NCBI RefSeq assembly: GCF_003991155.1
Contig: NZ_CP031296.1
Length of the DNA stretch: 60,038 bases
From: Escherichia coli
Lineage (GTDB): Bacteria > Pseudomonadota > Gammaproteobacteria > Enterobacterales > Enterobacteriaceae
Strand: one strand, 5' to 3'
Below, piece by piece: positions 39,001 to 42,000 of this stretch. A program made the position numbers. Each line of letters begins with the position of its first letter. Positions within the stretch are counted from its first letter, which is position 1.

Positions 39001-42000
39001 ACTCAGACCAAGATGACCATCATTAAATACTGCGTTCCAGTCGATTCCCGCCTGTTCCTGGCTTGATTTCTTGATACTCAGGATTTCAACGTTCAGCACA
39101 ACCTGACGACTCATTTCATTATTGCGCTTGTTCACAATCTCCTGAACGCTGTCCAGTACATCCGGGGTATCTGTTACTGTCAGTGAACCAGTGGACAGAT
39201 ACATGCGCCCTGTGCCTGGTGTCAGCATTGAGGAAACTTCGCTTTTCAGGTCGTTGTACAGCGATGATTTCATTTCCACGGTTGTAGTTTGCGTATTTGA
39301 TGCGTCGCCAGTCATACCGCCAGAGCTGGTAGAGCCGGTACTGCCGCTGGAAGACATTGTGCCGCTCACAACTTTTGAGTTGTATGCCACATTGCTGTCC
39401 ATATATGTGATCGGGAATGAGCGCGTTTCCAGATAGAAGAATGTGATACGACCTTTATCGTATTTCCAGGATATTCCCAGCCGTGAGGATACGGTTTGCA
39501 GTAGGGCAGGAAGCCCGGAGATATTCAGTTCCGGGAGTGATGTACCGCCAGAAGAGACTTTTACTGGCTGACTGCCTACTGACGCCAGAGGAACCATTCC
39601 ATTTGCATCCGGTGCTGGAATTGATCCTGTCATTTGTTGTGTTGAGCCAGTGCCTGTACCGTTCAGATAGGTCCAGACATCGGCGCTGATTCGTACCGGG
39701 ATATGACAGGTTTGTGTGATGCGTTGTGCGATCTGGCGTAGCTCAATATCTGAACGAGTATTAATCACAATCGGGCAGGGCGGCGCTGATTGCTTTACCT
39801 GCTTTTCAATAATTGGCGTTGTATTAATCCATTGTTTTGTTGAGTCCTGGATAACCGGGTTATTACGAATTTTTTTCGCGTATTCAGTCGCTTTTTGTGC
39901 GTCTTTTTCGGCTGCAAGTTCATTAGTATTGATTTTTTTGAAGTTTGCACAGCCTGATAATAAAAAAGAGGATATTAATAAACAAAGCAATTTTTTATTC
40001 ATATTTAATTAACTCCGGTACTGGAATGATAACTGTGCATCCTATTTCATCGTGAGAGCGGGTTAACGATATAACTGTGTCGAAAAGGTTTTGTATCTGC
40101 ACGCCGCCATCTGAAGGAGTCGTGACAACAATAAGACGTTTGCCACGTTTCCTGGCTGTTTTAATAAATCGAACAATAAACTGAACAACTTTTGATTCCC
40201 GTAAGTTGTTACCGATGGCTACACTATTAAGAACCAACGTTTTTTCAGGTGCAGATAAAAAGTCAAAATAATCAAAATTTTCATCGCAAAGATAATGGTG
40301 TTTTAGAAGGGGAAGGTGTTCATGGCGTTTATAAATATCACAGAAATCAAAATATTTAACGTCAGTGTCATTGATTAGCAATTCTGCTAAAAGTGTTGAT
40401 TTTCCAGTTCCAGTTTCGCCTATAATCAGAATATGTTTTTCAGAGTTTATCAAAACATCAATGGCTTCTTTCATCATATTCATATTCATATTCATATTCA
40501 TATTTATCATATTCGAGTGTTTTATTCTCATAATAGAATCCTGTCTTTGCTAATCAATAGTATCTTTATTGCGAGGATTATTCAGATACGTCTGTTTTAT
40601 CGTGATTATCAAGGTCTGGATTAGTAATCACATTGCCTCCGGCAACCATGACTTTTTTTCCTCCAGCTTTAGGGAGATAAATTTCTGCAATTTTTGCTAT
40701 TTCATCCATGACTTCTTGTGTAAACAGGTTTGGAATGTCAACATGATTGTTACGGGCGATATCCACGCGGCGTTTAAACTCTGGTTCTTCAAACCAGATT
40801 ATTTTGTTGGCAATAAATGGTCGGCTAAATTCACTGGTTATAATTTCACGGATTGCAATATTTCTGGCTTTATTCTTCTTATCCCGGAGAGACACAATTT
40901 CTTCAGGAAGAAGAACCGGGCGCTCTATTACATCATCATTCCGTGTACGTGAACTTCCTCCCTTACCACCACCACTGGATATTGAGCGTTTGGATATTTT
41001 CATATCACGCACCCCAATCTCTTCTGAAATCTTTTTAGCCAGAGCATTTTTTGATTTCGGCGGATAGTAAAGCACAACAGCACTGTTTTCAGTGAATGTG
41101 GTCCATCCTTCCTGACCGTACATATCGCTTTTTTGCCCTTGTCCTTCATTCTGAAGAATGAACATAAAGCGAAGGTTATAACCTGCTGTAAAACCAACAG
41201 CGCGTTCAATGACCTCCGATTTACCCATTGATGTAAATTCATCCAGGAGAATAAGGCACTGGTATTTCAGGTCCGGGTTATGTTCCGGCAGTTCACGACA
41301 GTTTTCATTAACCAGTAATGAGAAGAAAAGGTTTACAATTTTCTCATGAGTGATTAAGGCATCCGGTGTCAGACCAAGATAAATTGACATGGGTTTTTTA
41401 CGAATATCCCGGATATCAAAATCACTGAAATTCGTCGCTTCAGCAGTAACAGGGTTGCTGAATATATTCAGTGGTGATGAAAAGTTCGTTTTTATACTTC
41501 CCCTTGTGCGATCTGGTGCTGACATGAACTCAAAGAAGAATGATTTTGTTTTATCGCTAATCCAGCTACGATTTTCAACTTCCTGTCCCATCCATGCGGC
41601 GAGATCTTTTCCATTATCGGGAATCGACGTTTTCAGTATGGCGCTGATGGAAACAAGGACGTCCGGTGCATTATGACCTTTGGCTTTCTGGTCCAGGTGA
41701 AAACGCTCCTTGTCCAGCAGGTAAAGCCCTAACCCGACAAAAAGGTTGCGTGCAGAATCAGACCATATAGGATCATCACTTGCCGGGATAAGGATTGCGG
41801 CAATTTTTGCCAGGTCCGTTTCACGAAGTAAATCACTGCGACTGACGCAATCCAGAGGATTCCAGCGGTGAGAGCGTATCTGTCCTTTAATTGCCTGGTC
41901 GATAGTTTCCGCGTATCCGGCGGGCGCAAAGAGAAAGCATTTTTGCCCTAATTCTTTTTGCCTGAATCCGGCTGATAAAAACCAGTTTTCAAGTTTGATA

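What the first reader, a model, noticed from the sequence alone, without database searches (positions are those of the whole stretch)
40470..40531. (AATATG)5 hexanucleotide repeat at the 5' end of pilM, creating stacked in-frame ATG codons
The region encoding the PilM-like N-terminus is a perfect hexamer microsatellite (MNMNMNMNMNM). Copy-number changes keep the frame but alter N-terminal length and the number and spacing of potential start codons relative to any RBS. This could tune expression.
Basis: seen in the sequence. Interest (0 to 1): 0.4.

Follow-up and report, generated by a model that had tools for sequence, protein, structure and literature searches.

The report
Variable 6-base repeat in plasmid gene
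A perfect six-base repeat in the first codons of a small ATP-binding-protein gene (not PilM) on an IncI2 conjugative plasmid really does vary from 2 to 7 copies between almost identical plasmids, but it most likely just lengthens a floppy Asn-Met tail rather than supplying alternative start codons, so it is an ordinary microsatellite of modest interest.

Summary
On the minus strand, (AATATG)5 occupies 40504..40475. It is the longest perfect tandem tract in the window: 31 nt, against at most 17 nt in 200 simulations.

It lies in codons 10-19 of a 178-aa ORF (39995..40531) between virD4 and pilN on an IncI2 plasmid. The ORF is a small P-loop NTPase, not a PilM. R64 PilM (PF07419) shows no similarity to it.

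The repeat is strongly polymorphic:
- 450 database plasmids carry 2-7 copies, and 62% have 5.
- 20 metagenome contigs carry 2-6 copies.
- Three of six plasmid pairs with zero SNPs over 4.6-8 kb of flank differ in copy number. This points to replication slippage far faster than point mutation.

The "stacked start codons" idea is not supported:
- Only the first ATG (40531) has a Shine-Dalgarno sequence (AGGA, 7-nt spacer).
- That SD-ATG geometry matches the one in homologues from IncF and IncX plasmids, whose proteins begin where Met19/20 aligns.
- Predicted RBS accessibility is flat for 2-9 copies.

The repeat is therefore best read as a translated, predicted-disordered (Asn-Met)n tail inside an IncI2-specific N-terminal insertion. 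It is probably near-neutral and could serve as a plasmid typing marker. It is a new member of a known kind, the in-frame VNTR.

The parts
40475..40504 (-). Perfect (AATATG)5 array, codons 10-19, encoding (Asn-Met)5. This is the variable unit.
   Evidence: TRF (100% matches, 5.2 copies, 40474-40504); sequence; translation.
40505..40513 (-). Degenerate extra copy AAT ATG ATA (N7 M8 I9) directly 5' of the array.
   Evidence: Read from the sequence. It is invariant in 25 loci apart from M8T in one protein cluster.
40529..40531 (-). ATG-1, the most likely translation start of the 178-aa ORF.
   Evidence: It is the only in-frame ATG with an SD. PGAP starts the CDS here in every annotated record seen. 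Gene callers give 172-178-aa products on hundreds of contigs.
40539..40542 (-). Shine-Dalgarno AGGA, 7 nt upstream of ATG-1.
   Evidence: Anti-SD duplex of -4.1 kcal/mol. Homologues have the same geometry: aaggattttttATG and gaggaaattattATG. It is invariant in all 25 loci.
40472..40477 (-). M19-M20 (ATG ATG). This position aligns with the start codon (M-Y-K-Q-A) of all homologues outside IncI2, so it corresponds to the ancestral N-terminus.
   Evidence: Protein alignment A1; sequences; start of the IncF homologue L003.
39995..40531 (-). orf178, a small P-loop NTPase with Walker A GETGTGKS. PGAP names it 'sigma 54-interacting transcriptional regulator', 'ATP-binding protein' or 'YfdA protein'. 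Its stop overlaps the pilN start (ATGAATAA).
   Evidence: AlphaFold model; weak KaiC/RecA/FlaH-like fold matches.
38359..40002 (-). pilN (type IVb thin-pilus secretin lipoprotein), the downstream gene. It overlaps the orf178 stop by 8 nt.
40578..42536 (-). virD4-type coupling-protein gene, upstream. A 46-nt spacer separates it from ATG-1.
   Evidence: PGAP CDS of 1959 nt.

Best explanation
The hexamer array is a short in-frame VNTR (coding microsatellite). It expands and contracts by replication slippage in whole 6-nt units.

It lies inside an IncI2-specific insertion of 18-19 codons placed directly after the conserved SD-ATG of a small conjugation-associated P-loop NTPase gene. Translation most likely starts at ATG-1 (40531). 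On that reading the repeat is translated as an (Asn-Met)n tract, n=2-7 in nature, within a predicted-disordered N-terminal tail. Copy number changes tail length by 2 aa per step and does not change the RBS.

The variation is probably near-neutral or of small effect.

Shown here: the repeat, its polymorphism, its fast rate relative to SNPs, the SD geometry, and the homologue N-termini. Inferred: use of ATG-1, translation of the tract, and neutrality.
For: 1. Polymorphism in whole units. Among 450 PLSDB records the spans are 93, 99, 105, 111, 117 and 123 nt, which corresponds to n=2-7. Counts are 279 for n=5, 49 exact for n=4, 24 for n=6, about 21 for n=3, about 52 for n=2, and at most 11 for n=7. 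Sequences were read directly for n=2, 5, 6 and 7. Twenty metagenome contigs gave n=2:4, n=3:2, n=4:7, n=5:5 and n=6:3. Exact proteins with n=2, 3, 4 and 5 are on 611, 713, at least 1000 and at least 1000 contigs.

2. Fast change. Of six pairs with 0 SNPs over 4.6-8 kb of flank, three differ in n: window n=5 against pVT553 n=6, pD90-2 n=5 against pBA77 n=7, and L008 n=5 against L013 n=6. Several further pairs with 1-3 SNPs also differ.

3. Start at ATG-1. AGGA lies 7 nt upstream with a -4.1 kcal/mol anti-SD duplex, while all repeat ATGs give about 0. Homologues in IncF and IncX plasmids have the same SD-spacer-ATG geometry but continue directly with M-Y-K-Q-A, which aligns to M19-M20-K-E-A. PGAP and metagenome gene callers all start at ATG-1.

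4. No predicted RBS effect. The opening energy of positions -17..+12 is 4.4-4.8 kcal/mol for n=2-9.

5. Floppy tail. Residues 1-15 have pLDDT below 50 and no secondary structure, while the core folds as a P-loop alpha/beta domain (pTM 0.75).

6. Weak constraint. The orf178 core has pN/pS of about 1.1 between two IncI2 sublineages, against 0.07 for pilN and 0.15 for virD4. Substitutions inside the extension are mostly non-synonymous: S6L/T, M8T and unit Met to Ile or Val.
Against: - No experimental start-site mapping exists, so use of ATG-1 rests on SD logic and annotation.
- Copy numbers of 1 or less and 8 or more were never seen. This could reflect selection on tail length rather than pure drift.
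- The tract is stable within outbreak sets: at least 12 Shigella sonnei plasmids all have n=3.
- The pN/pS estimate rests on only 10 substitutions.
- The low pLDDT of the tail may partly reflect the lack of alignment depth there.
- The exact-protein look-up missed n=6, although that protein exists in RefSeq, so that survey is incomplete.
Confidence: 0.72

Rival explanations
1. The stacked in-frame ATGs act as alternative initiation codons, and copy number changes how many there are and how far they lie from the RBS, so it tunes the expression level or the isoform mix of the protein.
For: There are eight in-frame ATGs in 20 codons in an A/U-rich region predicted to be weakly structured. The ancestral N-terminus of the family aligns with M19/M20, so a protein starting there would be a complete homologue. 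Copy number does vary.
Against: No repeat ATG has an SD; duplex energies are about 0 kcal/mol, against -4.1 for ATG-1. The SD-to-ATG-1 spacing is fixed at 7 nt whatever the copy number. The RBS opening energy is flat with n. The SD-ATG geometry conserved in homologues is at ATG-1.
Confidence: 0.08
2. Adaptive length tuning. The (Asn-Met)n tail is a functional spacer or interaction arm of the NTPase, or a Met-rich MxM metal- or partner-binding motif. Slippage would then give the plasmid a rapidly evolvable way to adjust thin-pilus or T4SS function, comparable to the neighbouring shufflon.
For: Copy number is confined to 2-7 across more than 450 plasmids and thousands of contigs. Changes recur on identical backbones. 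The gene is translationally overlapped with pilN and sits in the transfer operon. The elevated pN/pS of the gene could reflect diversifying selection.
Against: No phenotype data exist. The tail is absent from all homologues outside IncI2, so it is not needed for the family's core function. It is predicted to be disordered. The 2-7 range is also what mutation-drift of a short array gives. A pN/pS near 1 is equally what relaxed constraint gives.
Confidence: 0.15
3. The repeat acts at the DNA or RNA level rather than as protein. For example, an internal promoter overlapping ATG-1 would make a transcript whose first AUGs are those of the repeat, or the A/T-rich array would influence expression of the pilN operon.
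For: One sigma-70-like site (TTGATT, 16-nt spacer, TATTAT; 40557..40530, minus strand) ends on ATG-1.
Against: The scan found 1 site where shuffled sequence gives 3.7 +/- 2.1, so this is not more than chance. There is no terminator, no Rfam-type evidence was sought, and the array sits inside an intact, conserved reading frame in every locus.
Confidence: 0.03
4. The copy-number differences are sequencing or assembly artefacts.
For: Short repeats are occasionally mis-assembled from noisy long reads.
Against: A 30-nt array is far shorter than any read length. All differences are exact multiples of 6. Independent sets are internally consistent: at least 12 S. sonnei plasmids all have n=3, four mouse-gut plasmids have n=4, and three pHN1122-like loci have n=2. 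The same alleles recur in PLSDB, metagenomes and protein databases.
Confidence: 0.02

Closest known systems
Short in-frame VNTRs used for MLVA typing in Enterobacteriaceae, for example the 6-bp loci STTR5, STTR6 and the plasmid-borne STTR10pl of Salmonella Typhimurium, and the 6-bp O157 loci of E. coli (from my own knowledge; not tested here).
   Same: Perfect 6-nt units, a handful of copies, located in or next to ORFs, changing by whole units through slippage, varying between otherwise near-identical isolates, and stable within outbreaks.
   Different: This locus is on the IncI2 plasmid backbone, at the extreme 5' end of a transfer-operon gene. I found no paper describing it. It has fewer copies (2-7) than most MLVA loci.
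Phase-variable contingency loci: SSRs in reading frames or promoters of Neisseria, Haemophilus and Campylobacter surface genes.
   Same: A simple-sequence repeat at the 5' end of a gene linked to a surface or transfer apparatus, mutating much faster than point substitutions.
   Different: The unit is a multiple of 3, so no frameshift on/off switch is possible. The repeat does not lie between promoter or RBS elements. No within-population switching has been shown.
R64 (IncI1) PilM, Pfam PF07419, the gene upstream of pilN in the thin-pilus operon.
   Same: Same position immediately upstream of, and overlapping, pilN; similar small size.
   Different: No sequence similarity (BLASTP E=11) and no PF07419 hit. 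orf178 has a Walker A motif and a P-loop fold. Its homologues occur in IncF, IncX and IncP-like plasmids that have no thin pilus.
The IncI shufflon (site-specific inversion varying PilV tips), the known hypervariable element of the same plasmid family.
   Same: A second fast-varying site in the thin-pilus and transfer region of IncI2 plasmids.
   Different: The mechanism is entirely different: slippage against Rci recombinase. The target is a cytoplasmic NTPase tail rather than an adhesin tip. No functional consequence has been demonstrated.

Membership tests
Coding microsatellite / short VNTR | Head-to-tail perfect copies of a 1-9-nt unit, in excess of chance | tested here: met
   A 31-nt perfect period-6 tract, against a maximum of 17 nt in 200 simulations and 17 nt or less for every other period in the window.
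Coding microsatellite / short VNTR | Copy number differs between close relatives, in whole units only | tested here: met
   n=2-7 in PLSDB and metagenomes, with all spans differing by multiples of 6.
Coding microsatellite / short VNTR | Changes faster than point substitution (recurrent on identical backgrounds) | tested here: met
   Three of six zero-SNP pairs (4.6-8 kb of flank) differ in n.
Phase-variable contingency locus (SSR on/off switch) | Unit length not divisible by 3 within the ORF, or repeat placed between promoter or RBS elements, so that slippage switches expression | tested here: not met
   The unit is 6 nt and in frame. The SD-to-ATG-1 spacing is unaffected and the RBS opening energy is flat.
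Phase-variable contingency locus (SSR on/off switch) | Mixed copy numbers within one clonal population | not testable with these tools
   This needs raw reads or amplicon sequencing. Outbreak sets looked uniform.
R64-type PilM (Pfam PF07419) | Significant match to PF07419 or to R64 PilM | tested here: not met
   PF07419 is not among the best 25 of 44 families listed at E<=1. R64 PilM itself scores 7e-26 on PF07419. BLASTP of orf178 against R64 PilM gives E=11. tblastn of orf178 finds IncI2, IncF and IncX records but none of the sampled hits (60 of 862) was IncI1.
R64-type PilM (Pfam PF07419) | Gene immediately upstream of pilN in a type IVb thin-pilus operon | tested here: met
   The orf178 stop overlaps the pilN ATG, and pilO2, pilP, pilQ and pilR follow. 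This is positional only.
P-loop NTPase | Walker A GxxxxGK[ST] and an alpha/beta P-loop fold | tested here: met
   GETGTGKS is present. nSTAND3 scores 30.1 bits against a cutoff of 27.2. The AlphaFold core has pTM 0.75. Fold matches to KaiC, RadA, FlaH and PilT are weak, with TM about 0.45-0.58.
Sigma-54-dependent transcriptional activator (the name PGAP gives) | Full AAA+ sigma-54 interaction domain (about 168 positions, GAFTGA loop) plus a DNA-binding domain | tested here: not met
   The PF00158 match covers only profile positions 5-48 of 168 (the Walker A stretch) at 22 bits. The protein is 178 aa and has no HTH hit.

The most novel reading that the evidence does not exclude
The (AATATG)n array could be a selected, rapidly evolvable 'tuning knob' of IncI2 plasmids. 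Slippage would change the length of a Met-rich N-terminal arm of a transfer-operon NTPase, or the mix of isoforms initiated at the repeat AUGs. Through that, and through translational coupling into pilN, it would adjust thin-pilus or T4SS output. It would then be a second hypervariable device beside the shufflon on the main mcr-1 vector.
Probability: 0.1. Interest if true: 0.6.

Novelty: new member of a known kind. Interest (0 to 1): 0.25.

Why it matters
IncI2 plasmids are the main epidemic vehicle of mcr-1, and their backbones are so similar that SNP-based tracking has little resolution. A 6-nt VNTR that takes at least six allelic states and changes on otherwise identical 8-kb backgrounds is a cheap extra marker for plasmid epidemiology.

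The work also corrects three annotations. The gene is not pilM, it is not a sigma-54 regulator, and its N-terminal 18-19 residues are an IncI2-specific insertion.

Biologically, the repeat shows that coding microsatellites, which are rare in E. coli, can persist in a conjugation operon. Unless a phenotype is shown, it remains an ordinary slippage polymorphism.

Tried and rejected
- PilM identity was rejected. The Pfam and NCBIfam scans gave only generic P-loop hits. R64 PilM was fetched and compared, with no similarity.
- The PGAP name 'sigma-54-interacting regulator' was rejected, because the match covers only the Walker A segment.
- The PHROGs scan gave only generic P-loop matches.
- An RBS-structure effect of copy number was computed and is flat.
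- An internal promoter was considered. There is one consensus hit, fewer than expected by chance.
- Literature searches (IncI2 + pilM, IncI2 + AATATG, IncI2 + tandem repeat/virD4, IncI2 + 6-bp) found no description of this repeat. The 2025 IncI2 T4SS paper does not mention the ORF. Sakai & Komano 2002 on R64 PilM is not held.
- The exact-protein look-up for n=1-10 found only n=2-5. It missed n=6 and n=7, which do exist in PLSDB. The n=7 allele carries an ATG-to-ATA change in its first unit, and n=6 (WP_001220544.1) is simply absent from that collection.
- L020 gave a spurious distance of about 500 differences, probably from rearrangement or misalignment, and was ignored.
- A Cu/Ag-binding 'MxM' reading of the tail was considered but has no supporting evidence.

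Full report
**1. What is there**

Tandem Repeats Finder reports a 100%-perfect period-6 array at 40474..40504 (5.2 copies). On the minus strand the sequence reads AGGA-ttctatt-ATG AGA ATA AAA CAC TCG AAT ATG ATA (AAT ATG)x5 ATG AAA GAA GCC. This is the 5' end of a 178-aa minus-strand ORF, 40531..39995, whose product begins MRIKHSNMI(NM)5MKEAIDVL.

The perfect array is 40504..40475. A degenerate copy (AAT ATG ATA) precedes it. No other tandem tract in the window, for any period from 2 to 9, exceeds 17 nt. In 200 first-order Markov simulations of the window the longest period-6 tract averaged 13.9 nt and never exceeded 17 nt.

**2. Context**

The window is an IncI2 conjugative plasmid. An 801-nt query around the site is 100% identical to many IncI2 plasmids of 60-66 kb, for example pD90-2, which is typed IncI2 / MOBP / MPF_T. 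The gene order is virB9-virB10-virB11-virD4-[orf178]-pilN-pilO2-pilP-pilQ-pilR. A 46-nt spacer separates the virD4 stop from ATG-1. The orf178 stop overlaps the pilN start (ATGAATAA).

**3. The gene is not pilM**

- Pfam and NCBIfam give only generic P-loop matches. The best is nSTAND3 at E=4.7e-7, and Walker A is GETGTGKS.
- The PGAP name 'sigma 54-interacting transcriptional regulator' rests on a match to positions 5-48 of the 168-position PF00158 profile, which is the Walker A stretch only.
- I fetched the authentic R64 pilM, the gene upstream of pilN on NC_005014. It matches PF07419 at 7e-26 but has no similarity to orf178 (BLASTP E=11).
- tblastn of the orf178 core finds about 450 IncI2 records and about 410 records at under 60% identity. 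Those inspected lie in IncF plasmids between traU and trbC, or in IncX, IncX3 and IncP-like plasmids near the coupling-protein and topoisomerase III genes.
- An AlphaFold model (pTM 0.75) shows a compact alpha/beta P-loop core. Its matches to KaiC, RadA, FlaH and PilT are weak.

orf178 therefore belongs to a small family of accessory NTPases of unknown function found on conjugative plasmids. In IncI2 it merely occupies the slot that pilM occupies in R64.

**4. The repeat is polymorphic**

A 111-nt query (40-nt flanks plus the array) hit 450 PLSDB records. The matched spans were 93, 99, 105, 111, 117 and 123 nt, which corresponds to 2, 3, 4, 5, 6 and 7 copies. Copy-specific queries and the identity bands give the following counts:

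| Copies (n) | PLSDB records (of 450) |
|---|---|
| 2 | about 52 |
| 3 | about 21 |
| 4 | 49 exact, plus up to 14 SNP variants |
| 5 | 279 |
| 6 | 24 |
| 7 | at most 11 |

I read the alleles directly in pHN1122-1 (n=2), pVT553 (n=6) and pBA77-MCR-1 (n=7, first unit AATATA).

An exact-pattern scan of metagenome contigs with the downstream flank returned 20 independent loci: n=2 in 4, n=3 in 2, n=4 in 7, n=5 in 5 and n=6 in 3. All have an identical SD/ATG-1 region and all are in frame.

An exact-sequence look-up in the 15-billion-protein collection found the n=2, 3, 4 and 5 proteins on 611, 713, at least 1000 and at least 1000 contigs. It found none for n=1 or n=8-10. It also missed n=6, which exists in RefSeq, so that look-up is incomplete.

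Interrupted alleles also exist, with a unit Met changed to Val or Ile.

**5. Rate**

I aligned up to 4 kb on each side of the array for 22 loci. Of six pairs with zero SNPs, three differ in copy number:
- window n=5 against pVT553 n=6, over 8027 columns
- pD90-2 n=5 against pBA77 n=7, over 8025 columns
- L008 n=5 against L013 n=6, over 4636 columns

Several further pairs with 1-3 SNPs also differ. The array therefore changes about as often as all point substitutions in several kilobases combined. By inference that is of the order of 10^3-10^4 times the per-site rate, the signature of replication slippage.

It is not so unstable that outbreaks are mixed. At least 12 Shigella sonnei plasmids all carry n=3.

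**6. Where translation starts**

- Anti-SD duplex energies for the 18 nt upstream of each in-frame ATG are -4.1 kcal/mol for ATG-1 (AGGA, 7-nt spacer), -2.7 for M8 at an unusable spacing of about 15 nt, and about 0 for every repeat ATG and for M20.
- Homologues outside IncI2 (141-153 aa) all begin M-[YHQ]-K-[QH]-A, which aligns with M19-M20-K-E-A of orf178.
- Their SD-spacer-ATG sequences (aaggattttttATG, gaggaaattattATG, cggagtttatATG) resemble the IncI2 caggattctattATG at ATG-1.

The simplest reading is that IncI2 kept the ancestral SD and start codon and acquired an in-frame insertion of 18-19 codons directly after it. That insertion contains the microsatellite. PGAP and metagenome gene callers uniformly start at ATG-1. 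On this reading the repeat is coding and gives an (Asn-Met)n tract.

**7. Does copy number tune expression?**

Copy number cannot alter the SD-to-ATG-1 spacing. The computed energy to open positions -17..+12 of the mRNA is 4.4-4.8 kcal/mol for n=2-9. A sigma-70-like site overlapping ATG-1 is the only promoter-like hit in 900 nt, where 3.7 are expected by chance. There is thus no computational support for expression tuning. Minor SD-independent initiation in this A/U-rich tract cannot be excluded without experiment.

**8. Likely consequence**

Residues 1-15 of the model have pLDDT below 50 and no secondary structure, and the tail is absent from all other family members.

The orf178 core itself shows pN/pS of about 1.1 (8 non-synonymous and 2 synonymous differences) between two IncI2 sublineages. 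The figures for pilN and virD4 are 0.07 and 0.15. This suggests weak constraint, or less likely diversifying selection.

I therefore favour a near-neutral length polymorphism of a floppy tail. The restricted range of 2-7 copies leaves some room for selection on length.

**9. Comparison with known systems, and novelty**

Functionally and mechanistically this is a short in-frame VNTR of the kind used in MLVA typing of Salmonella and E. coli, which includes plasmid-borne 6-bp loci (my own knowledge). It is not a classical phase-variation switch, because the 6-nt unit cannot shift the frame and lies outside the promoter and RBS spacing.

I found no publication describing it. It is a new member of a known kind.

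The gene name and the start-codon mechanism do not.

**10. Verdict**

The feature is real and polymorphic, its mechanism is ordinary, and it has some practical use as a marker for IncI2 (mcr-1) plasmid tracking. Interest is 0.25.

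Noticed in passing
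window 15612-15836 (+), inside ORF 13187..17500: A long in-frame tandem array (18-nt unit x 12.5, or 54-nt x 4.2) encodes EQATEQ/AQATEQ repeats in the 1437-aa relaxase-like protein. It may be a second VNTR on the plasmid.
   Followed up: partly
window 57891-58003 (-), inside ORF 57585..58580: A 33-nt repeat (about 3 copies, 79-86% matches) encodes [15 protein letters not shown] repeats in a 331-aa protein that looks like the SPFH/band-7 family (my reading of the translation, not tested).
   Followed up: partly
window 12551-12683: A cluster of imperfect 12-nt and 7-nt repeats (GTTTTGTGGGTT / TGTGGGT) reported by TRF. It was not examined. It might be an iteron- or oriT-like region.
   Followed up: no
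window 39995-40474 (orf178 core) against L002 (pHN1122-1): The orf178 core has pN/pS of about 1.14 (8 non-synonymous, 2 synonymous differences) between IncI2 sublineages. The flanking pilN and virD4 give 0.07 and 0.15. This means relaxed or diversifying selection on this accessory NTPase.
   Followed up: partly
L003 4001-4462; L026 and L029 4001-4432; L033 3486-4142; L034 3465-3887: Homologues of orf178 (34-57% identity) sit in IncF tra operons between traU and trbC, and near the T4CP and topoisomerase III genes of IncX, IncX3 and IncP-like plasmids. This is a widespread, uncharacterised accessory P-loop family on conjugative plasmids. PGAP names it inconsistently: sigma-54 regulator, YfdA, ATP-binding protein or hypothetical protein.
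   Followed up: partly
window 40530-40557 (-): A sigma-70-like -35/-10 pair (TTGATT, 16-nt spacer, TATTAT) has its -10 hexamer ending on the first two bases of ATG-1. It is not above the chance expectation.
   Followed up: partly
cluster 1 of the protein collection: The 172-aa (n=2) protein is filed in a 90% cluster whose representative and most listed members are PilO2 fragments. This looks like a clustering artefact in the database, not biology.
   Followed up: no
L001 1173-1944 (pD90-2): In pD90-2 the VirB9-like gene is annotated as two shorter CDSs (219 nt 'TraH precursor' and 510 nt TrbG/VirB9), against a single 702-nt CDS in pVT553 and pBA77. This is a possible frameshift or a sequencing error.
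   Followed up: no
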